44,617 nucleotides of DNA from an uncultured Candidatus Peribacteria bacterium (lineage in GTDB: Bacteria; Patescibacteriota; Gracilibacteria; Peribacterales; Peribacteraceae): NCBI GenBank assembly GCA_964478005.1, contig CAYZGJ010000001.1, positions 1 to 44,617 of the forward strand, in the 5' to 3' direction. Both the position numbers and the translations under genes were made by a program. Below the pieces are notes generated by a model. The model was not told the origin of the DNA. It made no database searches and saw nothing but the letters and a program-made list of their open reading frames with translations. The first letter of the stretch is position 1. Each line of letters starts with the position of its first letter. This document shows, piece by piece, positions 10,489 to 38,333 of the stretch.

Positions 10489-10504
10489 TGTGCGGTGACA
10501 CCCG

Positions 10505-10663
10505 TTACACCTTCTGCATCTCCTCGCGTTTGCGGGTTGCCTCTTTTTCCAGCTGCTCGGCTTCCCGCTGCAGACGCTCCGCTTTGCGTGCGGCTTCCTT
10601 GCGCGCAGCAGCTTCTCTTTCCAATTGTTTCGCCTGTTCTTTCAGCATGTCTGCATCGGCCAT
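10505..10663 (-). CDS. small charged coiled-coil protein (52 aa), hypothetical
   Basis: MADADMLKEQAKQLEREAAARKEAARKAERLQREAEQLEKEATRKREEMQKV. This is the only part of the long antisense ORF 10505-11239 that does not overlap rlmH. Confidence 0.35.
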   Translation of the reverse strand: MADADMLKEQAKQLEREAAARKEAARKAERLQREAEQLEKEATRKREEMQKV

Positions 10664-10741
10664 GGGAAAAGGGGGAAAGTGTCCGTCAGTGTAGACGGAT
10701 GAAGGGCGGGGGAGTGACGGAATGCGTGGTAGAGTGTTCGC

Positions 10742-11206: not shown

Positions 11207-11230
11207 ATGCCGCATTCGGTATTTTTTGAG

Positions 11231-11259
11231 TTGTCGCATCGCGCTCGCTTTCCTATACT
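11231..11259 (+). promoter_or_regulatory. sigma70-like promoter for tRNA-Glu
   Basis: TTGTCG (11231-11236), 17-nt spacer, TATACT (11254-11259), about 40 nt upstream of the tRNA. Confidence 0.5.
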
Positions 11260-11299
11260 CTGTGCCCGTCGCCTCCGGCGATCGTTCTTTTCTCTCTGT

Positions 11300-11374
11300 G
11301 GCGCCATCGTCTAGCGGTTAGGACGCCAGGTTCTCATCCTGGTAACCGGGGTTCGATTCCCCGTGGCGCTGCCA
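11300..11374 (+). tRNA. tRNA-Glu (anticodon CUC), CCA encoded
   Basis: Manual cloverleaf: acceptor GGCGCCA/TGGCGCT, D arm GTCT-AGCGGTTA-GGAC, anticodon arm CCAGG-TTCTCAT-CCTGG, variable TAAC, T arm CGGGG-TTCGATT-CCCCG, discriminator G, CCA. Confidence 0.92.
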
Positions 11375-11380
11375 TTTCTG

Positions 11381-11429
11381 TCTCTACCGCGCCCACGAAA
11401 TCCTGAAGGGGAGCGGGTATCATCACTGA
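11381..11429 (+). pseudogene. diverged duplicate of the rlmH 3' end
   Basis: ctctaccgcgcccacgaaatcctgaaggggagcgggtatcatcactga aligns with rlmH 11159-11206 (39/48). It would encode LYRAHEILKGSGYHH* against LYRGFEMLKGSGYHH*. Confidence 0.8.
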
Positions 11430-11469
11430 TTCCTCGCGCACCTCTGTCGATTGGTGTACAGTGTTCCTC

Positions 11470-11634
11470 ATGCAAAAAATTCACGTCGAGCAGCACTCGT
11501 TCACGGGCGGCATGTGGTTCGCCCTGTGGCTCTTCACCATCGGGTTCCTGCAGCTTGGCTTCTGGAAGGGCGTGCTGGCGCTCCTCCTGTGGCCGTACTT
11601 TTTGGGCGCGGCGCTGAGCGGACTGCTGTCATAG
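11470..11634 (+). CDS. small two-TM membrane protein (54 aa), below the ORF-track cutoff
   Basis: MQKIHVEQHSFTGGMWFALWLFTIGFLQLGFWKGVLALLLWPYFLGAALSGLLS. TACAGT lies 7 nt upstream of the ATG. Its 3' end is duplicated at 13962-13994. Confidence 0.6.
   Translation: MQKIHVEQHSFTGGMWFALWLFTIGFLQLGFWKGVLALLLWPYFLGAALSGLLS
11590..11622. repeat. direct repeat copy A (33 bp, 3' end of small membrane gene)
   Basis: TGGCCGTACTTTTTGGGCGCGGCGCTGAGCGGA is identical to 13962-13994. Confidence 0.95.
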
Positions 11635-11802
11635 GGCGTCGTTTTTCCGTATGCTCTCCAGTATCTCCAGCATCCGCTGCCAGGCTGCGGAGCGAGCGGA
11701 GGCGTTTTCGTGCGAAGCGTCTGGTTCTTCCTCCAGCCGCATGAAAGCGTGGCCGGCTCCCTCGTAGATGACGGGTGCAAACGCGATGTGCGTCAGCGAA
11801 AA
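11629..11802 (-). pseudogene. C-terminal remnant of a dienelactone hydrolase-family gene
   Basis: Minus-strand frame reads FSLTHIAFAPVIYEGAGHAFMRLEEEPDASHENASARSAAWQRMLEILESIRKNDAL*. It is preceded by an in-frame TGA, has no start, and lacks the N-terminal three quarters of the fold. Confidence 0.45.
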
Positions 11803-11825
11803 TCATTCCGCATTCGTGTATGCAT

Positions 11826-12053
11826 TCACAATCTACAAGGCAAATCCAACCCAAGATTACATCCGATTACAAAAACGAATAAAAGAATCATGCCACCGGA
11901 AAGCATCACAATGGTGACCATAATAGCTGTAAATACAATCATCTCCGGCCACTTTCGTCGCTTCCAATACAGAAACACATTCCTTCCCAATATGAACATG
12001 AGCGTACCCCAGAGCAGTACGATACTACCAAGAATGAGGTTATCTTCATTCAT
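11826..12053 (-). CDS. small membrane protein, hypothetical (75 aa)
   Basis: Two to three hydrophobic helices in an AT-rich patch. No recognisable family. Confidence 0.4.
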   Translation of the reverse strand: MNEDNLILGSIVLLWGTLMFILGRNVFLYWKRRKWPEMIVFTAIMVTIVMLSGGMILLFVFVIGCNLGLDLPCRL

Positions 12054-12128
12054 GTAAGAATGCTATCACACATTGCCATCGGGAGAGTCTCTTGAGATTT
12101 TAATGAACAAGAGGACTACACTGTGCCA

Positions 12129-13952
12129 ATGAAGCTGTCTGCTCTCCGCAGGATGCCGGATTTCCGCCGGGCGCGCGATGCCGTGTCCGTCTCCCGGCGG
12201 TTGCTCGGGATGATCTGGGATATGGACCCGAAACTGTTCATTGGATCATTGATTGTGATCCTCATTCCGGCTGTCATTCCCTTCATCAATGCGTACATCT
12301 ACAAACTTCTCATTGATGCGGTAATCCTGAACATTGCCGGTGCGGCGCTGGAGGTCCGGCACCTCGTCATTCTCCTTATCATCCGCGTTGCCACGTACTT
12401 TTTGCAGGATGCTTCCTTCAGCGCGCAGACCTACATGGAGAGATTGCTATGGACCAAGTTTCCCATCTATTTGCATCAGCGCTTGTACACGGACCTGTCG
12501 CAACTGGATATGGAGACATTGGAGAATCCGCAATTCCGCAATACGCTGGAGCAGGTGAAGGAATCGGTGTACCGTCCTCAGAATCTCATTACCAACTTGC
12601 TCTACGGCTGTCAGAGTCTCGTGCAACTCTTCATCGCATTCGGTGCTCTTCTCGCACTGAACTGGGTGTTCATTCTGTTGGTACTCTTCGTCGCCATCCC
12701 CGAATTCGTCTATCGCCTTTACGAAGACAAAGCCGGATGGACCATCTGGGCTTGGCACAGTCCGCGCAAGAAGCGATTTTCCTATGTGTCGCACTTGTTG
12801 CAGGATGCGCAGAGCGTCAAGGAAATGCGCATTTTTCGGTTGGCACCGCTCTTTGTACGGGAGGCGACGGAGGCACAGGAAGCGTTTTATCGCGAGAACA
12901 AGGCGCTCGCGGGACGGGCACTTCTGTTTCAGATTCTGTTCAATGTTCTCTCCACCCTTCTGATCGTCGGTATCGAAACATATGTCATCCTGCTTGCGTT
13001 TCTGCGTCGGGTGACGATCGGTGACATCAGTTTTTACACGTCCGTGGTGGCCAACTTTCAAAACGGTCTCGGGGGATTGCTGCGCAATATGAACGGCATT
13101 TTTGAATCGAGTTTGTATGTTCGGAGTATCTTCGATGTCATGGATGCCCCGAGGCACATTGTTTCTCCACCCGATGCTCCGGCCAGGACGATGCATCGGC
13201 CGCCGTCCATCGTGTTCGATCACGTGACATTTCGTTATCCGGGTGCGGACCGGGATGTTCTGCATGATTTTTGCGTTGGTATCGCTCCGGGCGAGAAGGT
13301 GGCTTTTGTGGGAGAGAACGGCGCGGGAAAAACGACGATCATCAAGCTGTTGGCGCGCTTCCATGATCCCACGTCCGGACGCATTCTCGTCGATGACAAG
13401 GATTTGCGGGAGCTTCACTTGGAGAGCTGGCATCAGCAGTTGGCCGTTCTGTTTCAGGATTTCAACCGCTACGAAGATACGGCGAAGCATAATATATATT
13501 TTGGGAATGTGCTTAAAGCGATGGATGCACGGGAAATCGAAAGGGCCGCAGAGGATGCAGGAGCCACAGTCGTCATTGATACCTTGAAGAAAGGATATGA
13601 TCAGATGCTCGGACGCGTGTTCGAATCGGGGGAGGAGTTATCGGTGGGTCAGTGGCAAAAGATTGCGCTGGCGCGGGCATATTTTCGGAATGCGCCGGTG
13701 CTGGTGCTGGATGAGCCCACGGCGGCCATCGATGCCAAAGCGGAAGCGGAGATTTTCGCGCGGGTGGAGGAGCTGAGTCAGGATAAGACCGTCCTCCTCA
13801 TTTCCCATCGGTTCTCGACCGTCCGCATGGCCGATCGCATCATCGTGGTGCAGGACGGTGCGGTGCTCGAGCAGGGCAGCCACGATGCATTGATGAAACG
13901 AAAAGGTCTGTATGCGGAACTCTTCACTCTGCAGGCGAAAGGATATCGTTGA
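12129..13952 (+). CDS. ABC exporter, fused permease/ATPase (MsbA/multidrug-like)
   Basis: Six N-terminal TM helices. Walker A GENGAGKTT, signature LSVGQWQK, Walker B VLVLDEPT, H-loop LISHR. TACACT (12117-12122) lies 6 nt upstream of ATG 12129; the ORF track starts at GTG 12123. Confidence 0.9.
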   Translation: MKLSALRRMPDFRRARDAVSVSRRLLGMIWDMDPKLFIGSLIVILIPAVIPFINAYIYKLLIDAVILNIAGAALEVRHLVILLIIRVATYFLQDASFSAQTYMERLLWTKFPIYLHQRLYTDLSQLDMETLENPQFRNTLEQVKESVYRPQNLITNLLYGCQSLVQLFIAFGALLALNWVFILLVLFVAIPEFVYRLYEDKAGWTIWAWHSPRKKRFSYVSHLLQDAQSVKEMRIFRLAPLFVREATEAQEAFYRENKALAGRALLFQILFNVLSTLLIVGIETYVILLAFLRRVTIGDISFYTSVVANFQNGLGGLLRNMNGIFESSLYVRSIFDVMDAPRHIVSPPDAPARTMHRPPSIVFDHVTFRYPGADRDVLHDFCVGIAPGEKVAFVGENGAGKTTIIKLLARFHDPTSGRILVDDKDLRELHLESWHQQLAVLFQDFNRYEDTAKHNIYFGNVLKAMDAREIERAAEDAGATVVIDTLKKGYDQMLGRVFESGEELSVGQWQKIALARAYFRNAPVLVLDEPTAAIDAKAEAEIFARVEELSQDKTVLLISHRFSTVRMADRIIVVQDGAVLEQGSHDALMKRKGLYAELFTLQAKGYR

Positions 13953-25678: not shown

Positions 25679-26269
25679 ATGAAAGATGATTCCGTTCTCT
25701 TTCTCGGCCAATTCCGTTCTACATCGGCACGGTGTCCGCGGTGGGAGTATGCAAGCGTCGGGTGGTACCTTGTGACGATATGCACACAGGGAAGACGGCA
25801 TTGGTTTGGAGAAATTCGCAATGGTCGCATGTGCGTGTCGGCGATCGGATCCATCGTTTGGCAATGTTGGGAGGCCATTCCGCATCATCATCCTCATGGT
25901 ACGTTGGATCGGTGCATCGTGATGCCGGATCATATGCATGGGATCGTGCACATCATCGGATCATCTTCCGCATCGGGGAATGCATCGTTCATTGAACGTC
26001 ATTCTTCTTGTGATGTGGTAGAGACGCCCCATGGGGCGTCTCTACGATGTGCAAAGAATGACCTCCATTGGAAGAAGGGTGTTTTGGGTGTCATCGTCAA
26101 TCAATTCAAAGGGGCATGCACGACACACATACGACCCCATTGCTCCACATTTGCGTGGCAATCCCGGTTCCACGATCGCATCATCCGTGATAACGATGCC
26201 CTGGAATCCATGCGGCGGTACCTCGATGATAATCCCATGCAATGGGAACGTGATAGCGGCCGCACGTGA
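25679..26269 (+). CDS. REP-associated tyrosine transposase (RAYT), apparently intact
   Basis: WYLVTICTQGRRHWFG, HUH motif MPDHMHGIV, Tyr motif WQSRFHDRIIRD, YLDDNPMQW. AT-richer than neighbours. TGCTATGAT lies 8 nt upstream of the ATG. Confidence 0.8.
   Translation: MKDDSVLFLGQFRSTSARCPRWEYASVGWYLVTICTQGRRHWFGEIRNGRMCVSAIGSIVWQCWEAIPHHHPHGTLDRCIVMPDHMHGIVHIIGSSSASGNASFIERHSSCDVVETPHGASLRCAKNDLHWKKGVLGVIVNQFKGACTTHIRPHCSTFAWQSRFHDRIIRDNDALESMRRYLDDNPMQWERDSGRT
26018..26045. repeat. REP-like perfect palindrome GTAGAGACGCCCCATGGGGCGTCTCTAC inside the RAYT ORF
   Basis: 28-bp perfect palindrome, translated VVETPHGASL. Same element as 493-520. Confidence 0.9.
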
Positions 26270-29408: not shown

Positions 29409-31142
29409 ATGCTTCTCCTCTCCCGGCTCTTCACCAAGACCTCCAAAGATGCGGCATCCGATGCGTCTAGCCGCAATGCGGATCTGTTGATCCGTGGAGG
29501 ATTCGTGCAGAAAACGATGGCGGGCGTCTATGCCTATTTGCCGCTTGGCTTGCGGGTGCTCACGCGCATCGAACGGATACTGCGGGAGGAAATGGATGCG
29601 ATCGGGCAGGAGGTGTTGCTCCCTGCTTTGGCGCCGACAGAATTGTGGGAACGGACCGGACGGCTCGATTCCGTCGGTGTGCTCTTCCAGGCATCTGCGG
29701 CCAACGACGCATCGAAGAAAACGAACGACGCGCGCTACGTCCTCAACTCCACGCACGAAGAACTCATCACGCCGATCGTGCAGTCCTTCTGCGGCAGTTA
29801 CAAAGATTTGCCTTGCGCCGTCTACCAGATCCAGACGAAATTCCGCAATGAAGCGCGCCCAAAGTCCGGCTTGATGCGCGGGCGCGAATTCCGCATGAAG
29901 GATCTCTACAGCTTTCACACCTCCGAAGAAGATATGCTGCGATACTTCGCGGATGTTGCCATTCCGGCCTACAGGAAGTTCTTCGATCGCATCGGGATCG
30001 GAGATCGCACGGTGGTGGCGCTGGCATCCGGAGGAAGTTTCAGCAAAGAGCCATCCCGCGAATTCCAGACGATCTGCGAGACGGGGGAGGATCATCTCTT
30101 CCGCGTCCCGGGAACGGACACCATCTACAATCGCGAGATCTGTCCCTCGCTGGCGCCTGTGTGGGATAATGGCGCCGAGGAGGAACGACCGCTGGAGCAC
30201 GTCGTCGGCAAGGGCATCATCGGCGTGGATGAACTGGCGGCGTTCCTGAAGATCGAGGTGGAGCGGACGACCAAGACGTTGCTCTTCGAAATCGACAACG
30301 GTGCGATGATTGCCGTAGCCGTGCGCGGCGGATATGACGTGAATGAAGAGAAGCTCCAAGCGGTGCTGGGATGCTCCGCGCTGCGGCTGGCATCGGCGGA
30401 AGCAGTGCGCAAAATCACGGGCGCGGAAGTCGGGTACGCCGGTCCGCTCAATCTGCCTCCCGACGTACGTATCATCTGGGATGATTCGACGCGCGGACGG
30501 AAGAACTTCGAGTGCGGCGCCAACGTCACGCATGAGCACACCATCAACGTCAATTTCGGACGGGATCTGCCGATGCCGGAACAATTCCATGACGTGAAAA
30601 TTGCGAAAGAAGGAGATCTGGTACCGGGGACGGAGACGCCCTACGACGTCTTCCGCGGCAGTGAAGTGGGCAACGTCTTCACGCTCTACACGAAGTTTTC
30701 TTCTGCGTTTGACTTTACGTTCCAGGACAGCGACGGCGTGCAGAAACCCGTGTATATGGGATGCTACGGCATCGGCACCAGTCGCATTCTGGGGGTCCTC
30801 GCGGAGGTCTGCAACGACGAACGGGGACTCATCTGGCCCGCAGCCGTCGCGCCCGCGGATGTTCACATCGTCCCGATTGCCAAGAAGCCCGATGATCCGG
30901 TGCTGCAGGAGGCGCTGCGTATCGCGGAGGAACTGACGAAACTGGGCAAAGAATGCATCGTGGATGACCGCACGGATGCGTCCGTCGGATTCAAGCTGGC
31001 GGATGCCGATCTCATCGGCGTGCCCGTGCGCCTCATCGTGTCTCCCAAGACCCTGGAGCAGCAGGCGGTGGAGTGGACGGACCGCGCCACGGGCCAGACG
31101 GAGATCGTGCCGATTGCGGGGGTTGCCGCTCGGTGCGAGTGA
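29409..31142 (+). CDS. proS: proline--tRNA ligase, bacterial type with INS editing domain
   Basis: 577 aa. GFVQKTMAGVYAYLPLG, FRNEARPKSGLMRGREFRMKDLYSF, GCYGIGTSRILG. C-terminal anticodon-binding domain. Confidence 0.92.
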   Translation: MLLLSRLFTKTSKDAASDASSRNADLLIRGGFVQKTMAGVYAYLPLGLRVLTRIERILREEMDAIGQEVLLPALAPTELWERTGRLDSVGVLFQASAANDASKKTNDARYVLNSTHEELITPIVQSFCGSYKDLPCAVYQIQTKFRNEARPKSGLMRGREFRMKDLYSFHTSEEDMLRYFADVAIPAYRKFFDRIGIGDRTVVALASGGSFSKEPSREFQTICETGEDHLFRVPGTDTIYNREICPSLAPVWDNGAEEERPLEHVVGKGIIGVDELAAFLKIEVERTTKTLLFEIDNGAMIAVAVRGGYDVNEEKLQAVLGCSALRLASAEAVRKITGAEVGYAGPLNLPPDVRIIWDDSTRGRKNFECGANVTHEHTINVNFGRDLPMPEQFHDVKIAKEGDLVPGTETPYDVFRGSEVGNVFTLYTKFSSAFDFTFQDSDGVQKPVYMGCYGIGTSRILGVLAEVCNDERGLIWPAAVAPADVHIVPIAKKPDDPVLQEALRIAEELTKLGKECIVDDRTDASVGFKLADADLIGVPVRLIVSPKTLEQQAVEWTDRATGQTEIVPIAGVAARCE

Positions 31143-31580: not shown

Positions 31581-31708
31581 TTTTAGGTTTTAGGTGATTC
31601 GTTATTTCGATATTTCGTTAGTTCGTTAGTTCGTTAGTTCGTTATCTCGTATCTGGTTACTTGTGTCTTACGTCTCATATCTCACATCTCATATCTCATA
31701 TCTCATAA
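31581..31708. repeat. three adjacent short tandem repeats: (TTTTAGG)x2, (TTCGTTAG)x4, (CTCAYAT)x5
   Basis: 31581-31594; about 31613-31645; 31674-31708. All lie in the 159-bp spacer between 31720-32295 and the PAP2-like gene. Confidence 0.9.
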
Positions 31709-31719
31709 CTCAAGACTCA

Positions 31720-32295
31720 TCAATACATCTGCCTCTCGATCCGTACGGGAATGCCCTCCGCCGTGCGCGTCCGGTACGGACGGCCGGAGCGGAGGTTGCC
31801 GAGGAGCGCGGGCAGGTCCGCCGTGGGGATGGAGACCGCGTGCGCGCGGCCCGGAGCGGCACACCGCAGAGACCACGTTCCGTCTTGCTCCTGTGCTCCG
31901 GTGATCGCCAGCTCCTCGTCGCTCAGGGCTCCTCCGGCCAGCACCTTGTACTTGATGCCGTCCAGGTACACGCCGTCGCGCCGCAGGAGGACGGTTACGC
32001 CGCGCCCGTCCGCTTCCACGGTCTGCGGCCGGTCGAGCAGGGAGCGCTCCGCGCCGGGAGGCGGCGGCTTGAGCGGCGCGGCGATGATGACGGTGGTGCG
32101 AGGGGCGGGCGGGGGGGGTGGCCGGCGGGCAGGAGATGCCCGCTGCACGGGCGGCCGTTGCCGGGGGGCCGCCGTCCTGCGCGCCGTCTTCTTCTCCGCG
32201 GCGGGCTTCACCGTTTTCCGCTTCAAAAACGCCCGCACCCGCCCGCGGAGCGTCTGCCGCTTGGAGGGGGCCGGCGAGCGGGGGGAGGGGGGCAT
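31720..32295 (-). CDS. hypothetical protein with basic Pro-rich N-terminus
   Basis: 191 aa from ATG 32295. High-GC codon usage like the backbone. No recognisable motif. Confidence 0.5.
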   Translation of the reverse strand: MPPSPRSPAPSKRQTLRGRVRAFLKRKTVKPAAEKKTARRTAAPRQRPPVQRASPARRPPPPPAPRTTVIIAAPLKPPPPGAERSLLDRPQTVEADGRGVTVLLRRDGVYLDGIKYKVLAGGALSDEELAITGAQEQDGTWSLRCAAPGRAHAVSIPTADLPALLGNLRSGRPYRTRTAEGIPVRIERQMY

Positions 32296-32375: not shown

Positions 32376-35300
32376 TCATGCCGCTTGTGCCGGTTGCACA
32401 TCGGATGGATCGATCGTTGCAGTGCGTTCAGGGCGAGAGACGGGCGTGGGAGGTGGACGGGGCAGAATCGCATCAGCGCGCTGCAATAATCCTTCCACCG
32501 AAAGCAGGTGTGTATCTGCTCCGATGGCAGCAAGAGTATCTGCCTGTCCGGACTTCGCCTGCTGCAATGCAATCTCATTGGGATCGTCGTCCAGGAGGGA
32601 GATACGCAACGCAGTGATGGCTGATGCCACATCTTCCGGTGTCAATGATGTGCTGCTTTGCGCTTTTGTGGAAAGATCGCGCAAAACCGTCAGTGCCCTC
32701 TCGGCGAACGCGCCGCGCGCGATAGCACGCAAACTTTCTTCACTCTGCCCCCTGCCCGGCATCCAAGACCAGCTGCGTCTGTCCGTCCAGTTGGAATAGT
32801 TCGCCGAAAGAATTTTTGCCTCGCAAGCCGCCAGTTCATGCTGCACTGCAAGGAGCATCTTCCACGGCATGTGCTCCCGGAACAGGGAAGGATGCGCCGC
32901 CAGCGATGCGATATCCATCACCTGCAGTGCCTCGACTTGCGCATAAGCCTCCTCAACCTCCGCTTCCTTTTCTTCCCACGATCGTTCATCGGACCGGCTG
33001 TTGCCCGCAGGATCACGCAGGAAAGCGCGCTGCTCCAGCGTGCGAATGCGAGCGTACAACTCCGCCTTACGTACGGTCTCGGGATCAACCGGCACAAATG
33101 TCTTCTGCGTCTTCTCCTTGAGGTAGGTGACCGCTGCCGTAGCAAAGTATCCCATTTCGTCGCGCAGGCGCTGCGCGATGCGCTCCTCCCGCTTCTCCGG
33201 AGGCAAGCCGCGATCGCTTTCCGACAGATCGTCTTCTGCAAGGGGCGGGAGGGACCAGAGTGCTGCCTGGCGGAAGTATCCGGCGTATCCTTGCATGCGC
33301 GCAGTGGCATCAGCTTTGTCAAATGTTTCAGACATGTCCGATGCCACGAGATTCAATTGCGGACCGGCAAGCATCTTTGCAGGATCGGCAGCGAGCGCCT
33401 GCCCCCATGTCTTCTCCTGTTGAATGTGGTGCAGAATGGCCCCCGGTGTTTCCTGTGACAGCTCTTGTTCATTTCTCAATAATCGCTTTGTCCCCGCTTC
33501 GATGTTCCGACGAATCGGTTGCGCTACAAGATTATTGGTAGCCAACATGGCAACACCAATCGGCATTCCAGGTGAGTACAGAAGTGCTGTTCCTGCTGCA
33601 TTGATTTCCAAACTTGCCGTGTTGCCCCAATTTAACTCTCGTTCCAATTGCGCTTTCTTTGCGGGGTCCGTCTCTGCATCTATCGCATCCAACAAACGTG
33701 GGCGCTCGTTTTGAAAATAATCGTATGCCTCATATCCGACTGCAGCCGTATCAAGTACCACCGTTCCCTTCACCACTTTCCCTAGCCGCGCTAGGCGGGC
33801 GGGAACGGGGATGTGAGAGATGATTCGGGAAGATATCCCCATAGCTGCGCTTCGTCCTCGTTCATACTGCCGTAAAAAGCCTCTCAGTGGGGGCGCGAGG
33901 AATGAACCGCGAATACTCACGAAGCGCTGAATATTGATCGCGTGTCTCAAAGCCGGTTGTCGTGCGATAAGGAGGGCTTTATTCCTCTCAGCTATGAGAC
34001 CATATTGCCTGAATTCAGCTGCCAATTGCATCCAAAGCGCTTTGTTATGCGGTGATGCCGTACACCTGTTGAGTAGTTCCTTGAGGCTGCTCCGCACCTG
34101 CGAAGACAAGGCCGTATTATCAAGAGCCGATTCGAATTTCTTATAACAATCCGCCGCATGCCCGATGGCCGAAACCGAAGGGCCGCCGATCATCCTTTGC
34201 GACGCATTGATCACCCGATTCACAGGGTCCGTATTGAGCGCGCGAATATGCCAGGACTTCAATCCATCTTGTACATTGGCATACGTAATAAACGGACGTG
34301 TAACGAACCGGCTTGCTTCTCCAACAGCTATTGTTGCGCCGAGGGCGGGCAAGGGCCATTCCTTTACAATGGATGACATAATCTCCATTGTTTCCACTCC
34401 CCCTCGCACAAAGGTATATCCTACCGTTTTGCCAATCATGACCAGCGAGGGCACCGCCTTTTCAAACATTTCCGGATAACTCATACTGACCCCGAGCTTC
34501 TGCCATTCCTCCTGCAACGTTTCGCCGCTGGCACCGGCCAGCTTCTTCGCAATTCTCTGGATGATGCGATATTTTCTATCGCTAAACCAACGTTCATCTG
34601 CATCCGCGACAAATTTCAGTACTTCCATCTGCATGAGAATGAGTCCGGTGGGATTCCCCTGTTTCATCATGCGCTTATAAAAATACAGGCGCAGTGCTTG
34701 ATGCGGAGGCATGCGGTCCAAGAGATAGGTGCGCACGCGCTCGGCATCGGTGTCCCCTTCATTGCTGGGGAAGATGTCATGGAAACAAGGGAGAATGAAA
34801 AGATGCGTGTCGCCGTTCTGAATCTCTTCAAAGACCTTTGCAATGATTTGATCCTCCAATGTTTCCGCAGGGTTGCGCCTTGCGTACTCAATGCGATCAG
34901 CCACGGTGGAGTTGACTGAGCTTGCCGCGGCAATCGCAAAAAGCTTGCCGCTATCGACCGCTGTTTCTTCCTCCGTCAAACCGAATTCCGCGGCATGCTC
35001 CCGCACGAACTGCTGCAATTCCCGTTGCAAGTCTTGGTTGCCGCGAGAAATAGTCTGCAAATCAAGATGCCGCAAAGCCTGCACGATATCCTGACCCTGT
35101 TCAATTTGTTGCGTGAATCCGTATAACACCTCCGTCACTGATTCCATCACGGCATACCGCAGATATTCCTTCAGTGTCATCGCATCCATTTGCATCTGCG
35201 CCTGTTCGGGTGAGATGCCATCTCTCTCCACGAGCTGTGCCAGTACTTCCGGCTCCTTCTCTGCGCAGAGCGACAACAGGAGTTCTGCTCCCTGCATTCT

Positions 35301-36416
35301 ATTGGAACGATCGGACTCAGGTATGATAAGGATTTCTTCCGCCGACACATTTTGCTCCAGTTTCTCAAAGATTGCACTCATCGGCTTATCTCCATTATTG
35401 AGGAGCAACCCTCCCATCTGATAGATCTTGGCACCGGAAGAAATGCCCCAGTCCCGATCATCCATATTTGCCAAGATAGCTCGCGCCAAAAAAATATCCG
35501 TGGGGTTTTCCACAATTTCAGCGAATTCACTCACGGCTTCAGATCCCGAAACAGGGACATCGGCTCCTTGTGAAGTAACAGGCCGTTCCGATAACCGAAC
35601 AGCGTCCGCAGCTTGGCGCAATTGTGCCTCTATCTCATTTTTTCTCTGCATCAACTTTCCGAATTCTGCGGCAGTCAATCCTTCCATCTGCGTAAGTTTG
35701 CGCTGCACTTCTTCAAATTCAACCTGCAATTTTTTCATCGCCATACCCTTCAGATATTTACCGGCGGCATTGATGCCAAAATACCCTCCTACCGTCAACA
35801 CGCCGGCGAGCGCCCCCCACTTGATCCATCCCCATCCTTTTCCAACTATCGCTCCGGCTTGATGCGCTCTTTGCTTCAATCCTTTCCCAATCCATCGTGC
35901 CAACAGCAATCCGCCTACGACCACCGCTCCCGTTCCTGCGTACATCGCCGCGCGCTTCTGTTCCTCCGGCGTCCAGGTGTGCGGCTTGTACCACTTCTTT
36001 TCGGCAGCGGAAGGAACCTGTGGCGGTGACGGCTGCCGCTCGGCAGGGGCTACCGCGGGTGCGGGAGCGCTCTCCGGTTGCGCGGGCGTTGCACTGACGG
36101 GAGGCAGTGATTCCAAATGCGTGCGCATAGCTTCCGTCACGCCGCGCAATTGCTCCAAGTCCGCCGCGACCAGATCCCTGTACGTGCGCCTCTCCAAGTC
36201 CTGAAGATTTGCCTGTATCAACGCGCGTTCCTGCGCATTCAATCCATCAAGATTACGTTTCAATGCGTCCAGAATCTGCGGCTTTTCGGCATCGGAAGTC
36301 GCTTGTATCTCGGTAAGTAGTTGTTGCAATTGTTCCTCCGTCCGATGGGGCGTGCGCACGGTCTCGACGATGCGCTCTGCAAGAGCGGGACCGGAGGAAG
36401 GTGTGGGTGTGGACAT
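32376..36416 (-). CDS. 1346-aa orphan protein with N-terminal TM hairpin and long helical/coiled-coil body
   Basis: Uninterrupted 4 kb ORF in the AT-richer patch. Pro-rich linker, then hydrophobic helices at about aa 156-176 and 195-217. No known motif recognised. Confidence 0.8.
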   Translation of the reverse strand: MSTPTPSSGPALAERIVETVRTPHRTEEQLQQLLTEIQATSDAEKPQILDALKRNLDGLNAQERALIQANLQDLERRTYRDLVAADLEQLRGVTEAMRTHLESLPPVSATPAQPESAPAPAVAPAERQPSPPQVPSAAEKKWYKPHTWTPEEQKRAAMYAGTGAVVVGGLLLARWIGKGLKQRAHQAGAIVGKGWGWIKWGALAGVLTVGGYFGINAAGKYLKGMAMKKLQVEFEEVQRKLTQMEGLTAAEFGKLMQRKNEIEAQLRQAADAVRLSERPVTSQGADVPVSGSEAVSEFAEIVENPTDIFLARAILANMDDRDWGISSGAKIYQMGGLLLNNGDKPMSAIFEKLEQNVSAEEILIIPESDRSNRMQGAELLLSLCAEKEPEVLAQLVERDGISPEQAQMQMDAMTLKEYLRYAVMESVTEVLYGFTQQIEQGQDIVQALRHLDLQTISRGNQDLQRELQQFVREHAAEFGLTEEETAVDSGKLFAIAAASSVNSTVADRIEYARRNPAETLEDQIIAKVFEEIQNGDTHLFILPCFHDIFPSNEGDTDAERVRTYLLDRMPPHQALRLYFYKRMMKQGNPTGLILMQMEVLKFVADADERWFSDRKYRIIQRIAKKLAGASGETLQEEWQKLGVSMSYPEMFEKAVPSLVMIGKTVGYTFVRGGVETMEIMSSIVKEWPLPALGATIAVGEASRFVTRPFITYANVQDGLKSWHIRALNTDPVNRVINASQRMIGGPSVSAIGHAADCYKKFESALDNTALSSQVRSSLKELLNRCTASPHNKALWMQLAAEFRQYGLIAERNKALLIARQPALRHAINIQRFVSIRGSFLAPPLRGFLRQYERGRSAAMGISSRIISHIPVPARLARLGKVVKGTVVLDTAAVGYEAYDYFQNERPRLLDAIDAETDPAKKAQLERELNWGNTASLEINAAGTALLYSPGMPIGVAMLATNNLVAQPIRRNIEAGTKRLLRNEQELSQETPGAILHHIQQEKTWGQALAADPAKMLAGPQLNLVASDMSETFDKADATARMQGYAGYFRQAALWSLPPLAEDDLSESDRGLPPEKREERIAQRLRDEMGYFATAAVTYLKEKTQKTFVPVDPETVRKAELYARIRTLEQRAFLRDPAGNSRSDERSWEEKEAEVEEAYAQVEALQVMDIASLAAHPSLFREHMPWKMLLAVQHELAACEAKILSANYSNWTDRRSWSWMPGRGQSEESLRAIARGAFAERALTVLRDLSTKAQSSTSLTPEDVASAITALRISLLDDDPNEIALQQAKSGQADTLAAIGADTHLLSVEGLLQRADAILPRPPPTPVSRPERTATIDPSDVQPAQAA

Positions 36417-36424
36417 ATCACATC

Positions 36425-36433
36425 AGTATAGCA
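36425..36433 (-). promoter_or_regulatory. extended -10 (TGCTATACT) 8 nt upstream of the giant ORF start
   Basis: The minus strand reads TGCTATACTGATGTGATATG. Confidence 0.4.
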
Positions 36434-36482
36434 AAAAACGATCCAAAATGCCACTTTACCTTGGTCTCCCGCTCTCCTATCC

Positions 36483-36701
36483 TCAGCCACGAAATGGTCG
36501 TCCCATGGCCCCGGCTACAGCCCCACGCACACCCGCAACAAGGGTCCTACCTAGGGCACCACCTGCATATCCGGCAGCAGATCCACTAAATACAACAGCA
36601 TCACCCAAGGTAGCAGCCACCCCACGTCTCGTGCCGGCGCATACATGTTCGACAGCACTTAGTGCAACGGGGCCCGTTTCAGGATGTCGTCGGACCGGCA
36701 T
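36483..36701 (-). CDS. Gly/Ala-rich small protein (72 aa), hypothetical
   Basis: Its start overlaps the stop of the 297-aa ORF as TAATG. GVAATLGDAVVFSGSAAGYAGGALGRTLVAGVRGAVAGAMG is glycine-zipper-like. Confidence 0.45.
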   Translation of the reverse strand: MPVRRHPETGPVALSAVEHVCAGTRRGVAATLGDAVVFSGSAAGYAGGALGRTLVAGVRGAVAGAMGRPFRG

Positions 36702-37594
36702 TATGCAGTTGTGGAAGCGGGAGGGGCATCTGCGGCCGGTGCAGCACCGGGAGTCTCGGGAGCGGCGGCGGGTGCGGGGGCAGGAGCAGCAGGTGCTTCA
36801 GGAGTGGATGCCGGTGGAGCGGATGCAGGAGCAGGAGTCGATTGCTGTTGCATATTCTCTTTCACTTTTTGCGCACTCTCCAATATATCCTTTGTAGTAA
36901 GTTTTTGCTTGTTCGAGGGGCTTTGCTCGACCACACTGATCAGAAAGGATGCAAGCGGAATCTGTTGCGCAGCCACTTTCCCGCTATTGACACTACTGAG
37001 AATTTTGACAACTTCTCGCATGTTCTCGTCATCCTTGGACCCCGCCTCAAATGTTCTCTTGTTTGCACTGAGAGCAGCGAAAAGCTCTTTCATCCCCGGC
37101 CCCTTCGGCAGCAGCCAATCGGGCACGGTGATTCCAAAACTCATTAAGGATGGTAAGAGCGGCCCCAACATTTTTGCCAGCAAATTTTGCAACTTATCCG
37201 CCGTCTCCATGAGCATATTCGTAATCTTTGTCACCGCACCCATGCCTTTTTCAATATTGTCTTGCGCAAAGAGCACCGTATTATCTTGGAATCTTTGATA
37301 AATACTGTCGATACTGAGTTGTGTAGCTTCTACAGCATCCCTCAATGCATCCGGCACTTCATCCAGTCGCCATTTGGCTACTTCAGTCTTGAGACCATCC
37401 AGAGCTTCTCCACTCATGTTCTTCACTTGCTCGCGCGCGTCTCTCAACGCAGTCAATGCGCTGTTCACGATATCTTCCGACACTTCCGCACCGGTCTCTT
37501 GCACTACTTTCATTCTTTCTCGTATTGCGCTCAGTGTATCGACTGGGCGCTCAGGTGGATTGGTGTCGGGTGCGGAACCGGGTGCGTTTGTCAT
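36701..37594 (-). CDS. 297-aa helical protein with Pro/Ala-rich C-terminal tail, hypothetical
   Basis: Long ORF in the same low-GC block, with no TM helix and no motif. The tail reads STPAPASAPPASTPEAPAAPAPAPAAAPETPGAAPAADAPPA. Confidence 0.6.
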   Translation of the reverse strand: MTNAPGSAPDTNPPERPVDTLSAIRERMKVVQETGAEVSEDIVNSALTALRDAREQVKNMSGEALDGLKTEVAKWRLDEVPDALRDAVEATQLSIDSIYQRFQDNTVLFAQDNIEKGMGAVTKITNMLMETADKLQNLLAKMLGPLLPSLMSFGITVPDWLLPKGPGMKELFAALSANKRTFEAGSKDDENMREVVKILSSVNSGKVAAQQIPLASFLISVVEQSPSNKQKLTTKDILESAQKVKENMQQQSTPAPASAPPASTPEAPAAPAPAPAAAPETPGAAPAADAPPASTTA

Positions 37595-37629
37595 ACGGAA
37601 AGATGGGAAGGGATGTGTGTATGAGTAAA

Positions 37630-37857
37630 TTAAGCAGCGAGTACAGAAGATAACTCCCTTGGAGTACCGGAAGGATTCAATGCGTCCTGCAGTGAAGTAA
37701 CTTTGTTGATTTCTTCCCCAACAAGCCCATGAACATCATTGTTGATTTGCAATTGAAGATCCGGAAGCGACGGCGTCTCTACGGGATCGTGTGATGCAAA
37801 ATGATCAGACTGATCGTTTGCTGCATCAGGCGTCTCGAAAGCATCAGGATGATTCAT
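37630..37857 (-). CDS. 75-aa acidic protein, hypothetical
   Basis: First ORF of the low-GC block. Candidate promoter TTGCGG-17-TAGAAT lies upstream. Confidence 0.4.
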   Translation of the reverse strand: MNHPDAFETPDAANDQSDHFASHDPVETPSLPDLQLQINNDVHGLVGEEINKVTSLQDALNPSGTPRELSSVLAA

Positions 37858-37884
37858 GAATGCGTTTGGTATGTATTTGCCACT

Positions 37885-37913
37885 ATTCTACTCCAAAACA
37901 TCAAAATCCGCAA
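37885..37913 (-). promoter_or_regulatory. candidate sigma70-like promoter for the low-GC cluster
   Basis: The minus strand reads TTGCGG (37913-37908), 17-nt spacer, TAGAAT (37890-37885). Confidence 0.4.
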
Positions 37914-37976
37914 CCACCGCCCCACGGGCCGCTCGGATGTGCTACCATGCCCCCGTTCCTTCCCCCCTCGCTCTCT

Positions 37977-38333
37977 ATGCACATCGAGCACTACGAGAAA
38001 GGCATCCGGTATACGGACAAGGAATTGCTGCTGCTGGCCCGGAAGCTGGGCAAAATGGCGACGTACTGCAGCCGGCTGAAGGACGAGTCGTCCGTCATCC
38101 GCGTGGATGCCCAGCGGCGGCCGACCAAGAAGGCACGTGACGAGGTGCACGTGACGATCACCGTGGAACTGCCCCGGAAGACGCTGCGGAGCGAGTCGCG
38201 CAAGGCAACGGTCGTCGAAGCGATTGACCGCTGCGTGGAGAAGATGGAGCCGCAACTGCTGAAGTACAAGGACGCCTGGACCACCAAGGGCAAGCGCATC
38301 CGGCAAGCCCGCTCTCCCATCCCCGCCCGCTGA
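37977..38333 (+). CDS. hpf: ribosome hibernation promoting factor / RaiA family (short form)
   Basis: MHIEHYEKGIRYTDKELLLLARKL...VHVTITVELPRKTLRSESRKATVVEAIDRCVEKMEPQLLKYKD. Alternative ATG at 37947. Confidence 0.75.
   Translation: MHIEHYEKGIRYTDKELLLLARKLGKMATYCSRLKDESSVIRVDAQRRPTKKARDEVHVTITVELPRKTLRSESRKATVVEAIDRCVEKMEPQLLKYKDAWTTKGKRIRQARSPIPAR

What the first reader, a model, noticed from the sequence alone, without database searches (positions are those of the whole stretch)
32376..37857. Low-GC orphan four-gene cluster centred on a 1346-aa hairpin-anchored helical protein
Seen: the 5.5-kb block is clearly AT-richer than both flanks (hpf on one side, a high-GC hypothetical gene on the other). 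It holds four same-strand ORFs. They are a 75-aa acidic protein, a 297-aa helical protein with a Pro/Ala tail, a 72-aa Gly/Ala-rich protein coupled by TAATG, and a 1346-aa protein. The large protein has a Pro-rich linker and two closely spaced hydrophobic helices (aa about 156-176 and 195-217). More than 1100 aa of helical or coiled-coil-looking sequence follow, in which I recognise no catalytic or family motif. It has its own extended -10 (TGCTATACT) 8 nt from the ATG. A second promoter candidate (TTGCGG-17-TAGAAT) precedes the first ORF. No integrase, repeats or tRNA mark the borders. Inference: a horizontally acquired module of unknown function. A bilobed TM hairpin followed by a giant helical domain recalls membrane-inserted effectors or scaffolds, so a role at the cell surface or at a cell-cell interface is plausible but unproven.
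Basis: partly seen in the sequence, partly recalled or inferred. Interest (0 to 1): 0.8.

Follow-up and report, generated by a model that had tools for sequence, protein, structure and literature searches.

The report
Peribacteria giant hairpin-protein operon
The AT-rich block is not a foreign island. It is a fast-evolving operon that sits at the same genomic position across the uncultured Peribacteria (CPR) and encodes a giant, all-helical membrane protein family with no known sequence or structural relatives, whose function is still unknown.

Summary
**Observation: confirmed.** Four minus-strand genes (75, 297, 72 and 1346 aa) lie at 32376-37857. Their GC3 is 0.37-0.57, against 0.75-0.92 in the flanking genes.

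**Interpretation: partly supported.**
- The genome is a Candidatus Peribacteria (CPR) bacterium.
- The block is neither an orphan nor an inserted island. The same operon lies between hpf/7TM-transglutaminase and DUF212/ProRS in at least 10 related genomes.
- An exhaustive HMMER search finds 82 cluster representatives of the giant protein, 1045-2823 aa long. They are built from shuffled N- and C-modules.
- The giant gene is AT-richer at third codon positions than its neighbours in 11 of 12 loci. The low GC is therefore a property of the locus, not evidence of a recent import into this genome.
- Gene and flank similarities disagree between genomes, which points to cassette exchange between lineages.

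**No link to anything known.** Pfam, NCBIfam, PHROGs, PADLOC, PDB sequences, Foldseek (PDB and BFVD), phage, plasmid and IMG/VR searches give no significant match. AlphaFold models the giant as 77% helix with confident globular domains.

**Family-wide features.**
- No signal peptide.
- A Gly/Ala-rich hydrophobic hairpin with a strongly basic loop.
- A small Gly-rich partner gene immediately upstream.
- A conserved, probably leaderless promoter.
- An enriched C-terminal Ala-Ala.

**Best guess.** A membrane-embedded envelope or interface structure under diversifying selection. The function is unproven.

The parts
37885..37913 (-). Promoter candidate for the operon (TTGCGG-17-TAGAAT) in the divergent hpf/p75 intergenic region
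   Evidence: Sequence read. The TTGCG and GAGTAGAAT boxes are conserved in W, L001, L003 and L007. The -35 element matches the consensus at only 3 of 6 positions, so the consensus scan did not list it.
37630..37857 (-). p75: small acidic protein, probably disordered. It carries a conserved LVGEEM-like motif and ends in ...SSVLAA.
   Evidence: ORF. GC3 is 0.37. Positional homologues are L001 80 aa, L003 81 aa and L007 62 aa, at 33-52% identity. No family hits.
36701..37594 (-). p297: helical partner protein. It has an N-terminal helical bundle (aa 15-104), a central hydrophobic helical segment (aa about 121-160), a small C-terminal domain (aa 165-252) and a disordered Pro/Ala tail (aa 253-297).
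   Evidence: ORF. Five homologues at E of 1e-99 or lower, with 45-60% identity. AlphaFold2 mean pLDDT 64.5, with two confident parts. Best Foldseek hit against PDB has E = 0.9. No significant family hit.
36483..36701 (-). p72: small basic protein with a Gly/Ala/Val-rich amphipathic C-terminus. It is translationally coupled to p297 through TAATG.
   Evidence: A small gene of 40-98 aa with the same kind of C-terminus lies immediately upstream of the giant gene in every context examined: L001, L003, L007, L008, L009, L010, L011, L013 and L014. In L002 and L004 it forms the tail of a 139-173 aa protein.
36425..36433 (-). Extended -10 element (TGCTATACT) 8 nt upstream of the giant gene's ATG. The spacing implies a leaderless or near-leaderless mRNA.
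   Evidence: Conserved with the same spacing to the ATG in L003 (TGCTATACT), L001 (GCGCTATAAT) and L010 (TGCTACACT). L007 carries TGGTATACT, but its spacing to the ATG could not be read from the stretch aligned.
32376..36416 (-). p1346: giant all-alpha membrane protein, a founding member here of an undescribed family
   Evidence: ORF. Homologue P0002 at 39% identity. 82 family representatives. AlphaFold2 on aa 190-1314: pLDDT 74.8, 430 residues at 90 or above, 77% helix. No Pfam, NCBIfam, PHROGs, PADLOC, PDB or Foldseek match.
35766..36005 (-). Membrane hairpin of p1346: motif AEKKWYKPHTWTPEE (aa 138-152), helix 1 (aa 156-176), basic loop (aa 177-194, four K/R and no D/E) and helix 2 (aa 195-217)
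   Evidence: Across the family, 64 of 79 members have two hydrophobic peaks. The loop between them is about 25 aa with net charge +4.6, against +0.5 and +1.2 for the flanks. The N-terminal tail has a median length of 140 aa and net charge -3. None of the 79 has a signal-like N-terminus.
33837..35765 (-). N-module of p1346 (aa about 218-860): a charged stalk helix, then globular helical domains with the motifs LPxFHxxFP and GNPxGLxLMQxExLKF. It includes a further Gly/Ala-rich segment at aa about 664-705.
   Evidence: Profile positions 1-675 occur on their own in many family members, joined to different C-terminal parts. Conserved motifs seen. pLDDT is 80-95 over most of the module.
32475..33779 (-). 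C-module of p1346 (aa about 880-1314): a second hydrophobic pair flanking the most conserved stretch of the family (NERPRLLxxIxxExDPAKKAQLEREL), followed by a helical domain of about 350 aa
   Evidence: Identity to L001 and L003 is 0.47-0.61 here, against 0.16-0.35 in the middle of the protein. The module occurs without the N-module in L004, P0026, P0036 and others. pLDDT is 85-97.
32379..32474 (-). Pro-rich C-terminal tail of p1346, ending in ...QPAQAA (C-terminal Ala-Ala)
   Evidence: 29 of 79 family members end in -AA, against 2 of 83 flanking genes (Fisher p = 8e-9).
31720..32295 (-). p191 (219 aa as the longest ORF): a conserved downstream neighbour that lies outside the low-GC block (GC3 0.87). 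It has a basic Pro/Lys/Arg-rich N-terminal part and a C-terminal domain of about 100 aa (DGIKYKVLA...IRIERQMY).
   Evidence: Homologues follow the giant gene in L001, L003, L004, L007, L010 and L012, and as a fusion in L006. NCBI aa (P0092). An 80-nt spacer follows the giant's stop codon. No PDB or family hit.

Best explanation
**Shown**
- The block is the local copy of a lineage-specific operon of Candidatus Peribacteria (Peregrinibacteria, CPR). The operon sits at a fixed place in the core genome.
- It reads divergently from hpf and runs co-directionally into a p219-type gene, DUF212 and ProRS.
- Its invariant core is a small Gly-rich basic protein followed by a giant all-alpha protein. Most copies also have one or more helical partner proteins upstream.
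- The giant protein belongs to an undescribed family built from an N-module and a C-module. The two modules are recombined with other parts in different lineages.
- The locus evolves two to three times faster than its neighbours.
- It is systematically AT-richer at synonymous sites.
- It shows gene/flank discordance between genomes.

**Inferred: how the locus evolves**
- It is a resident hypervariable locus. It is renewed by exchange of alleles or modules among Peribacteria, not a one-off foreign insertion.
- Its low GC3 reflects that exchange, or a weaker GC-raising force at the locus, or both.

**Inferred: how it works**
- The giant protein is inserted in the cytoplasmic membrane by its Gly/Ala-rich hairpin.
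- The strongly basic hairpin loop should stay in the cytoplasm (positive-inside rule). The acidic N-terminal tail and the large helical domains would then be displayed outside the membrane. There they would form an envelope structure that meets hosts, neighbouring cells or phages, which would explain the diversification.
- The small proteins (p75, p72, p297) lack export signals. They most likely act on the cytoplasmic side as assembly or holding partners for the hydrophobic segments.
- The C-terminal Ala-Ala shared by the giant and several partners would mark uninserted or excess copies for C-terminal-specific proteolysis.
For: **Taxonomy and synteny.**

**Family size and modularity.**
- 82 representatives, 73 of them at E of 1e-10 or lower.
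- Transitive links to the giants of L002 and L006.

**Rates.** Flanking genes are 73-82% identical between genomes. The cluster genes are 33-47% identical.

**Composition.**
- Giant GC3 is below flank GC3 in 11 of 12 loci (Wilcoxon p = 0.001). It correlates with flank GC3, r = 0.87.
- Along the gene, GC3 does not correlate with conservation.

**Discordance.** L001-L003 identity is 70% for the giant and 65% for p219. In the same genome pair it is only 55% for p297, 35% for p72 and 27% for p75. W is 39-42% identical to either giant, with equal flank identities. An IS66 transposase lies inside the locus in L007.

**Membrane features.**

**All-alpha globular model.**

**Conserved promoters.**

**Translational coupling.**, plus the 1-4 nt overlaps in L001, L003, L007, L009 and L011.

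**C-terminal Ala-Ala.**

**Lineage background.** Peribacter genomes encode Clp and C-terminal processing proteases. Their strain variation is concentrated in large exported proteins (PMC4736985).
Against: - No component has a signal peptide (0 of 79 giants), and no secretion genes are adjacent.
- Exporting a 140-aa N-terminal tail and more than 1100 aa without a signal peptide is unusual.
- The hydrophobic helices are weak (KD about 1.1-1.7) and were modelled with low confidence. They might not span the membrane.
- No dedicated topology predictor was available. The topology rests on a charge count alone.
- A C-terminal Ala-Ala that worked as a ClpX-type degron would fit a cytoplasmic C-terminus better than an external one.
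- The GC3 pattern can be explained without any exchange.
- Function is inferred entirely from architecture and evolutionary mode. There is no homology to any characterised protein.
Confidence: 0.5

Rival explanations
1. Cytoplasmic membrane scaffold. The hairpins anchor the giant protein with both ends in the cytoplasm. There, together with p75, p297 and p72, it forms a lineage-specific membrane skeleton, or a division or shape apparatus. It evolves fast because most of it is structural filler.
For: - None of the proteins has a signal peptide.
- The partner proteins look cytoplasmic.
- C-terminal Ala-Ala resembles cytoplasmic ClpXP degrons (own knowledge of ssrA-type signals).
- The locus sits in a fixed housekeeping neighbourhood and is apparently single-copy.
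- TM helix 2 and the charged helix after it weakly resemble the membrane anchor and stalk of ATP synthase subunit b (E about 1e-3).
Against: - The hairpin loop carries net +4.6 charge across the family. That is the wrong side for an N-in/C-in hairpin.
- Module shuffling and gene/flank discordance are unusual for a housekeeping scaffold.
- There is no similarity to any known cytoskeletal or division protein.
Confidence: 0.28
2. One reading: a recently acquired foreign island of unknown function, inserted next to hpf.
For: - GC3 steps sharply at both ends of the block in W: 0.87 to 0.37 at one end and 0.57 to 0.87 at the other.
- There are other low-GC3 gene patches in the window.
- Giant similarities between genomes are discordant with flank similarities.
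Against: - The same genes lie at the same position in at least 10 related genomes.
- No mobility genes, tRNA or border repeats are present in W.
- The GC3 deficit is general and proportional to host GC3.
- No relatives occur in phage, plasmid or IMG/VR collections.
- Only the weaker form survives: replacement of the resident allele by one from another Peribacteria lineage. That form is folded into the best explanation.
Confidence: 0.07
3. Polymorphic pore-forming toxin or effector. A conserved N-terminal delivery part carries exchangeable C-terminal membrane-inserting modules, and the downstream gene (p219-type) serves as immunity.
For: - The architecture is modular, with alternative C-terminal parts.
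- The protein has Gly-rich hydrophobic hairpins inside otherwise soluble-looking helical domains.
- A variable gene follows immediately downstream.
- The locus diversifies rapidly.
Against: - No toxin, immunity or secretion domains were found.
- There is one copy at a fixed core locus, not several cassettes or orphan modules.
- The exchangeable parts are 450-1500 aa long, far larger than typical toxin tips.
- In several lineages the downstream gene is replaced by a PD-(D/E)XK nuclease gene.
Confidence: 0.08
4. A domesticated phage part, such as a tape measure or ejection protein with its chaperones.
For: - The giant is a long all-alpha protein with hydrophobic hairpins, preceded by small genes.
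- Tape measure proteins dominate the weak BFVD hits.
- p297 has weak PHROGs tail hits at E = 0.06-0.08.
Against: - None of those hits is significant. The best BFVD hit has E = 8e-3, probability 0.28 and TM-score 0.08-0.10.
- No other phage genes occur in any of the loci examined.
- tblastn against phages gives no match, and neither does the IMG/VR scan.
- The globular helical domains are unlike an extended tape measure.
Confidence: 0.03

Closest known systems
Large strain-variable exported proteins of Candidatus Peribacter riflensis (PMC4736985)
   Same: Same lineage. Both are large (over 1000 aa), of unknown function, and concentrate the variation between strains or lineages. The paper proposes a role in attachment.
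   Different: The published proteins are cysteine-rich (about 7% Cys) and mostly have signal peptides. p1346 has 5 Cys in 1346 aa, no signal peptide, an all-alpha fold and a hairpin anchor. I found nothing in that paper to show that this family was described there.
Phage tail tape measure proteins
   Same: Both are very long all-alpha proteins with Gly-rich hydrophobic segments, preceded by small partner genes. They are the commonest named proteins among the weak BFVD structure hits.
   Different: There is no significant sequence or structure match. No tail module is present in any locus. The locus is a fixed cellular one. The model shows globular helical domains.
Bilobed-hairpin membrane proteins delivered by type III secretion (chlamydial Inc proteins; translocators of the IpaB/YopB type)
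   Same: Two closely spaced hydrophobic helices form a hairpin in an otherwise hydrophilic helical protein. Small acidic partner proteins lie nearby.
   Different: There is no sequence match. No type III system is present in any locus examined. The giant is 3-10 times larger. The hairpin loop is long and basic. This is a resemblance from memory only, not a tested relationship.
Hypervariable replacement loci in bacterial core genomes (for example surface-antigen loci with conserved flanks)
   Same: Conserved flanking genes, highly divergent alleles in between, lower GC than the flanks, and mosaic histories.
   Different: Those loci usually encode recognisable enzymes or adhesins. Here every product is of unknown family.
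ssrA/ClpX-type C-terminal degrons (...LAA-COOH) and substrates of tail-specific proteases
   Same: C-terminal Ala-Ala on p1346 (...AQAA), on p75 (...VLAA) and on 37% of family members.
   Different: Only the last two residues are shared. No protease interaction has been tested. The tmRNA tag of this lineage was not found in the held loci.

Membership tests
Horizontally acquired genomic island | Base composition deviates from the host genome | tested here: met
   GC3 is 0.37-0.57 in the block and 0.75-0.92 in the flanks.
Horizontally acquired genomic island | Absent from the same site in related genomes | tested here: not met
   The operon is present between hpf/7TM and DUF212/ProRS in L001, L002, L003, L004, L006, L007, L010, L011 and L014.
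Horizontally acquired genomic island | Mobility genes, tRNA target or direct repeats at the borders | tested here: not met
   The only tRNA in the window is at 11300-11374. There are no border repeats and no integrase.
Phage tail tape measure protein or phage structural module | Sequence or profile match to phage families | tested here: not met
   PHROGs: the giant has only E = 0.21 to a family of unknown function, and p297 has E = 0.06-0.08 to tail families. tblastn against phages gives no match. IMG/VR gives none.
Phage tail tape measure protein or phage structural module | Structural similarity | tested here: not met
   Best BFVD hit: E = 8e-3, probability 0.28, TM-score 0.08.
Phage tail tape measure protein or phage structural module | Embedded among tail, capsid or terminase genes | tested here: not met
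   The neighbours are hpf, 7TM-transglutaminase, ATP-grasp, DUF212 and ProRS in all informative loci.
Any curated protein family (Pfam, NCBIfam) or solved structure | Score above the family threshold, or a significant match to a PDB sequence or structure | tested here: not met
   All Pfam and NCBIfam hits are far below their cut-offs. 27 long family members give only a Decapeptide repeat, in 2 of them. Best PDB profile hits have E about 1e-3, to Psb34 and ATP synthase subunit b, over the TM region only. Best Foldseek PDB hit has E = 0.5.
Anti-phage defence systems (PADLOC) | Match to a defence protein model | tested here: not met
   No hit below E = 0.5 for any of the five proteins.
Polymorphic toxin systems | Conserved N-terminal part with exchangeable C-terminal parts | tested here: met
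   The N-module and C-module occur together or with other partners.
Polymorphic toxin systems | Recognisable toxin domain, cognate immunity gene, and a linked secretion system | tested here: not met
   No such domains were found. The downstream gene varies between p219-type and a PD-(D/E)XK nuclease. No secretion genes lie in the loci.
Secretion-delivered hairpin membrane proteins (Inc or translocator type) | Bilobed hydrophobic hairpin | tested here: met
   Two hydrophobic peaks about 25 aa apart in 64 of 79 members.
Secretion-delivered hairpin membrane proteins (Inc or translocator type) | Dedicated secretion system in the genome, and an N-terminal secretion signal | not testable with these tools
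   Only 44.6 kb of the genome is held. No secretion genes are in the window or in the related loci.
New family proposed here (Peribacteria giant hairpin protein) | N-terminal tail with no signal peptide, Gly/Ala-rich hairpin with a basic loop, helical N-module (LPxFHxxFP) and/or C-module (ERPRLL...DPxKK...ERE), and a small Gly-rich partner gene upstream | tested here: met
   p1346 has all of these. The partner p72 is present.

The most novel reading that the evidence does not exclude
A previously unrecognised envelope apparatus specific to Peribacteria. A giant all-alpha protein with novel folds is threaded into the membrane by a hairpin whose basic loop stays inside, so that over 1200 residues are displayed outside without any signal peptide. 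Small cytoplasmic partners help assemble it. A C-terminal Ala-Ala signal controls its quality. Exchange of whole modules between lineages keeps renewing it, because it is the contact surface with host cells or phages.
Probability: 0.25. Interest if true: 0.8.

Novelty: categorically new. Interest (0 to 1): 0.62.

Why it matters
CPR bacteria make up a large part of bacterial diversity, and how they meet other cells is largely unknown.

This operon has several properties that make it a well-defined target:
- It is a lineage-wide, probably single-copy locus.
- It has confidently predicted but unmatched folds.
- It has a clear evolutionary signature: fast evolution, a modular build, and GC3 lagging behind the genome.
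- It has concrete handles for experiments: the hairpin with its basic loop, the conserved ERPRLL...DPxKK loop, the C-terminal Ala-Ala and the leaderless promoter.

If the protein is surface-displayed, it would be a candidate determinant of host range or phage susceptibility in Peribacteria. It would also be an example of large-domain export without a signal peptide.

The GC3 pattern is a clean case for asking why hypervariable loci escape the GC-raising force of their genomes.

It is also a caution. A compositional 'island' with an 'orphan' giant gene turned out to be a conserved resident locus. The word-indexed search missed the family and an exhaustive profile search found it.

Tried and rejected
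**Family and structure searches that found nothing**
- Pfam, NCBIfam, PHROGs and PADLOC scans of all proteins gave nothing significant.
- A Pfam scan of the 27 longest family members, looking for informative domain fusions, found only a Decapeptide repeat in two of them.
- PDB sequence searches with single and deep profiles gave only TM-region hits at E about 1e-3, to Psb34 and ATP synthase subunit b. I regard these as similarity of composition and architecture.
- Foldseek of the giant model against PDB and BFVD, and of p297 against PDB, gave no significant match.

**Collection scans that found nothing**
- GTDB genome and JGI metagenome scans with the giant protein found nothing, because only two peptide patterns were used.
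- Synteny was recovered through the neighbouring 7TM protein.
- An IMG/VR scan and tblastn against phages and plasmids found nothing.

**Tests that were negative or inconclusive**
- Direct profile-profile comparison of the W-type C-module with the L002/L006 giants was not significant (hhalign probability 1.5%). Their membership rests on transitive links through P0030, P0034 and P0037, and on a local jackhmmer run.
- GC3 along the gene does not track conservation (Spearman rho 0.28, p = 0.17). 'Relaxed parts are AT-richer' is therefore rejected.
- No tmRNA was found in the held loci, so the lineage's ssrA tag could not be compared.
- A search for p219 homologues returned only two proteins.

**A self-correction**
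An apparent 4-nt overlap between p1346 and p219 was rejected. Relatives and the NCBI gene call place the start at 32295.

**Jobs that failed**
The first representative-search job failed because the profile exceeded 1200 positions.

Full report
**1.

The window carries four consecutive minus-strand ORFs at 37630-37857 (75 aa), 36701-37594 (297 aa), 36483-36701 (72 aa) and 32376-36416 (1346 aa).

- GC in 1-kb windows falls to 0.49-0.58 across the block, against 0.63-0.70 on either side.
- The contrast is much sharper at third codon positions. GC3 is 0.37, 0.50, 0.37 and 0.57 for the four genes. It is 0.87 (hpf), 0.92 (7TM-transglutaminase), 0.87 (the downstream 191-aa gene) and 0.91 (DUF212).
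- The TAATG junction between p297 and p72 is present.
- The TGCTATACT element 8 nt before the giant gene's ATG is present.
- TTGCGG-17-TAGAAT before p75 is present.
- There is no tRNA, integrase or border repeat.

**2. Whose genome this is**

The neighbouring genes include:
- SecD with a PPIase insert,
- an archaeal-type PEP carboxylase,
- a 7TM-transglutaminase with an ATP-grasp/MATCAP pair.

These suggested a CPR bacterium. A scan of GTDB genomes with the 7TM protein returned five loci. All are from Candidatus Peribacteria or Peregrinibacteria MAGs, or from an unnamed MAG, at 53-79% identity. Complete Peribacter genomes are 1.25 Mb with 58.5% GC (PMC4736985).

**3. Not an orphan and not an insertion**

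*The homologue found first.* The word-indexed protein search found a single homologue of the giant protein, P0002, at 39% identity. Its contig L001 is collinear with the window over the whole neighbourhood:
- ATP-grasp, 7TM and hpf on one strand;
- then 80 aa, 281 aa, 85 aa, 1329 aa, 174 aa and DUF212 on the other.

*The GTDB loci.* L002, L003, L004 and L006 carry a 1081-1947 aa ORF in the same place and orientation. Helical partner genes lie upstream and a p219-type gene lies downstream or is fused.

*Further contexts fetched through family members.* These show the same arrangement:
- L007
- L010
- L011
- L014
- Partial versions on short contigs L008, L009 and L015
- One different neighbourhood, L013, beside a ribosomal-protein operon
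- The 15.8-kb contig L005 holds the 7TM gene but no family member in the stretch available.

*The whole family.* An exhaustive HMMER search of 1.84 billion cluster representatives used a profile of aa 190-1314.
- It found 82 proteins at E of 1e-3 or lower, and 73 at 1e-10 or lower. Lengths are 1045-2823 aa.
- Matches fall into an N-module (profile positions 1 to about 675) and a C-module (about 735-1180). The two occur together, or separately with other sequence.
- The giants of L002 and L006 do not match W directly. They are tied to the family through P0030, P0034, P0037 and P0084. For L002 there is also a local jackhmmer alignment.

**4. What is conserved in the operon**

- **A small partner gene.** A gene of 40-98 aa immediately upstream of the giant is invariant. 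Its C-terminus is a basic, Gly/Ala/Val/Thr-rich amphipathic stretch. It is often coupled by a 1-4 nt overlap to its neighbour.
- **A p297-type helical protein.** It is usual. Five homologues were found at E of 1e-99 or lower. Positional analogues occur in L002, L004, L006, L009, L011 and L014.
- **The acidic p75.** It is found in the closest relatives.
- **A downstream p219-type gene.** Its C-terminal domain of about 100 aa recurs in W, L001, L003, L004, L006 (fused), L007, L010 and L012. Other lineages have a PD-(D/E)XK nuclease gene there.
- **The start of the W copy of that gene.** By comparison with relatives and with the NCBI call (191 aa, P0092), it starts at 32295. This leaves an 80-nt spacer after the giant's stop codon.
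They are conserved. The extended -10 keeps its 8-nt distance to the ATG in W, L001, L003 and L010, and L007 has a similar box. That spacing implies a leaderless or near-leaderless transcript. The TTGCG/GAGTAGAAT pair before p75 is conserved in four genomes.

**5. How the locus evolves**

*Rate.* Between W and L001 the flanking proteins are 73-82% identical. The cluster proteins are 33-47% identical.

*GC3.*
- The giant's GC3 is below the mean of its flanks in 11 of 12 loci (Wilcoxon p = 0.001).
- It correlates with flank GC3 (r = 0.87).
- The gap is about 0 in AT-rich genomes and 0.2-0.3 in GC-rich ones.
- W, the most GC-rich of the genomes compared, has the largest gap, -0.29.
- The compositional anomaly is therefore a general property of the locus, not a mark of recent import into this genome.
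- Within the gene, GC3 (0.46-0.69) does not follow conservation.
- The downstream p191 evolves equally fast but has native GC3. Fast protein evolution alone is therefore not the cause.

*Discordance.* W, L001, L003 and L007 are about equidistant in their flanks: 7TM 77-79% where the full-length gene is available, DUF212 76-81% and ATP-grasp 73%. Yet:

| Comparison | Giant | p219 | p297 | p72 | p75 |
|---|---|---|---|---|---|
| L001 vs L003 | 70% | 65% | 55% | 35% | 27% |
| W vs L001 or L003 | 39-42% | 36-38% | 47-51% | 33-40% | 33-43% |

This pattern points to exchange of part of the operon between lineages. So do the module shuffling across the family and the IS66 transposase inside the locus in L007. 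A lineage-specific rate change cannot be excluded with five genomes.

**6. What the proteins look like**

*The giant protein.* AlphaFold2 used a 26-sequence family alignment for aa 190-1314.
- Mean pLDDT is 74.8 and pTM is 0.43. 430 residues are at 90 or above.
- The model is 77% helix with no sheet. It has 61 helices with a median length of 12 residues.
- This means several globular all-alpha domains, not a coiled coil.
- The low-confidence segments coincide with the linker and with the Gly/Ala-rich hydrophobic stretches at aa 190-221, about 664-703, 836-896 and 937-964.

*Structure searches.* Foldseek found nothing significant in the PDB (best E = 0.5) or in BFVD (best E = 8e-3, TM-score 0.08). 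Tape measure proteins are frequent among the weak BFVD hits, as expected for any long helical query.

*p297.* The model has an N-terminal helical bundle, a low-confidence hydrophobic middle, a small C-terminal domain and a disordered Pro/Ala tail. pLDDT is 64.5, and there is no structural match.

*Other searches.* No library (Pfam, NCBIfam, PHROGs, PADLOC, PDB sequences) gives a significant hit for any protein, or for 27 long family members.

**7. Membrane features and a new motif**

- None of 79 family members of 900 aa or more has a signal-like N-terminus.
- In 64 of 79, two hydrophobic peaks lie within the first 340 residues, separated by a loop of about 25 aa.
- That loop carries 6.5 K/R and 1.8 D/E on average, net +4.6. 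The 15-residue flanks are at +0.5 and +1.2.
- The N-terminal tail has a median length of 140 aa and is net negative.
- By the positive-inside rule (established knowledge), the loop should be cytoplasmic. The N-tail and the large domains would then lie outside. This is an inference from a charge count, not a prediction from a trained method.
- Unexpectedly, 29 of 79 giants end in Ala-Ala, against 2 of 83 flanking genes (Fisher p = 8e-9). Several partner proteins do too: W p75 ends ...VLAA, L003 p81 ...VLAA, L007 p81 ...NLAA and L002 p139 ...KQAA.
- This resembles ssrA/ClpX-type or tail-specific-protease recognition signals (own knowledge). Peribacter genomes encode Clp and C-terminal processing proteases (PMC4736985).

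**8. Interpretation**

*Shown.* This is a resident, Peribacteria-specific, fast-evolving and modular operon encoding a new all-alpha giant protein family with conserved partners.

*Inferred, about even odds.* It is a membrane-embedded envelope structure whose large domains face outward and diversify under pressure from hosts or phages. The small proteins would serve as cytoplasmic assembly partners, and Ala-Ala as a quality-control tag.

*Main rival.* A cytoplasmic membrane scaffold. The missing export signals fit it, and so does the degron-like tail.

*Poorly supported or refuted.* Foreign-island, toxin and phage-remnant readings, for the reasons in sections 3 and 6.

**9. Comparison with what is known**

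The closest described things are analogies only:
- the Cys-rich exported giants of Peribacter (different composition, and they have signal peptides),
- tape measure proteins,
- hairpin proteins delivered by secretion systems,
- hypervariable replacement loci.

No defining feature of any known family was met except generic ones (a hairpin, modularity, deviant composition). I therefore rate the family as lying outside every known kind. The caveat is that 'new' here means unrecognisable in sequence and fold. It does not mean a demonstrated new mechanism.

**10. Verdict**

- Interest is moderately high, at about 0.6. CPR genomes hold many unknown proteins, so a dark giant protein is not surprising in itself. 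What makes this a well-defined and testable target is the combination of lineage-wide synteny, mosaic evolution, a systematic GC3 lag, confident novel folds, the basic-loop hairpin and the Ala-Ala termini.

Noticed in passing
window 32379-32384 and 37630-37635; family proteins P0001-P0090; loci L001-L007: C-terminal Ala-Ala is strongly enriched. 29 of 79 giant-family proteins and several partner proteins end in -AA (for example ...VLAA, ...AQAA, ...TAA), against 2 of 83 flanking genes (Fisher p = 8e-9). A few end in ...KQAI, ...TQTAI or ...TKIAI. This looks like a degron or a tail-specific recognition signal.
   Followed up: partly
window 29409-31142 (+); L007 13484-15289; L001 12559-13986; L014 13638-15068: ProRS lies next to DUF212 in nearly all loci but comes in two kinds. 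W and L007 have a bacterial-type enzyme with an editing domain on the opposite strand (89% identical to each other, GC3 0.72-0.75). L015 also has an editing-domain enzyme. L001 and L014 have a short archaeal-type (ProRS-C_1) enzyme on the same strand as the giant gene. This suggests a gene displacement at this site.
   Followed up: partly
L007 6002-7429: An IS66-family transposase is inserted between the small partner gene and the giant gene in the closest relative of the window's operon.
   Followed up: no
window 471-1211, 9644-13952 and 25679-26269: There are other patches of low-GC3 genes (0.53-0.66) in a genome whose typical GC3 is 0.83-0.92. One patch surrounds tRNA-Glu (11300-11374). It holds a NYN-domain protein, hypothetical genes and an ABC-type ATPase. 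These could be true islands or further fast-evolving loci.
   Followed up: no
window 31666-31714: Three head-to-tail copies of a 14-nt unit (TCTCAYATCTCATA) lie in the spacer between DUF212 and the 3' end of the p191 gene.
   Followed up: no
window 36425-36433; L001, L003, L007 and L010 upstream of the giant genes: The extended -10 box keeps a fixed 8-nt distance to the ATG in W, L001, L003 and L010, and there is no room for a Shine-Dalgarno sequence. L007 has a similar box. The giant gene is probably translated from a leaderless mRNA even though it sits inside an operon.
   Followed up: partly
window 35913-36005 (aa 138-168 of p1346): The motif AEKKWYKPxTWTPEE plus helix 1 gives marginal matches to the photosystem II assembly protein Psb34 (PDB 7dxa_B at E = 1.4e-3; NCBIfam at E = 0.12). 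Helix 2 plus the following charged helix matches ATP synthase subunit b at E about 1e-3. Both are probably membrane-interface look-alikes.
   Followed up: partly
window 2004-4433 (-): SecD carries a PPIC-type peptidyl-prolyl isomerase domain inserted in its periplasmic region (aa 349-454).
   Followed up: no
window 37860-38333 (+): The longest hpf ORF (157 aa) has a 39-aa N-terminal extension that is absent from relatives. The conserved start is MHIEHYEKG at 37977. A TAGCACA box is invariant in the divergent intergenic region.
   Followed up: partly
L009 10030-10662; L011 12444-13148; L014 12216-13049; L015 4119-4943: In several lineages a PD-(D/E)XK (Cas4-like) nuclease gene follows the giant gene in the position that a p219-type gene occupies in the window's lineage.
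   Followed up: no
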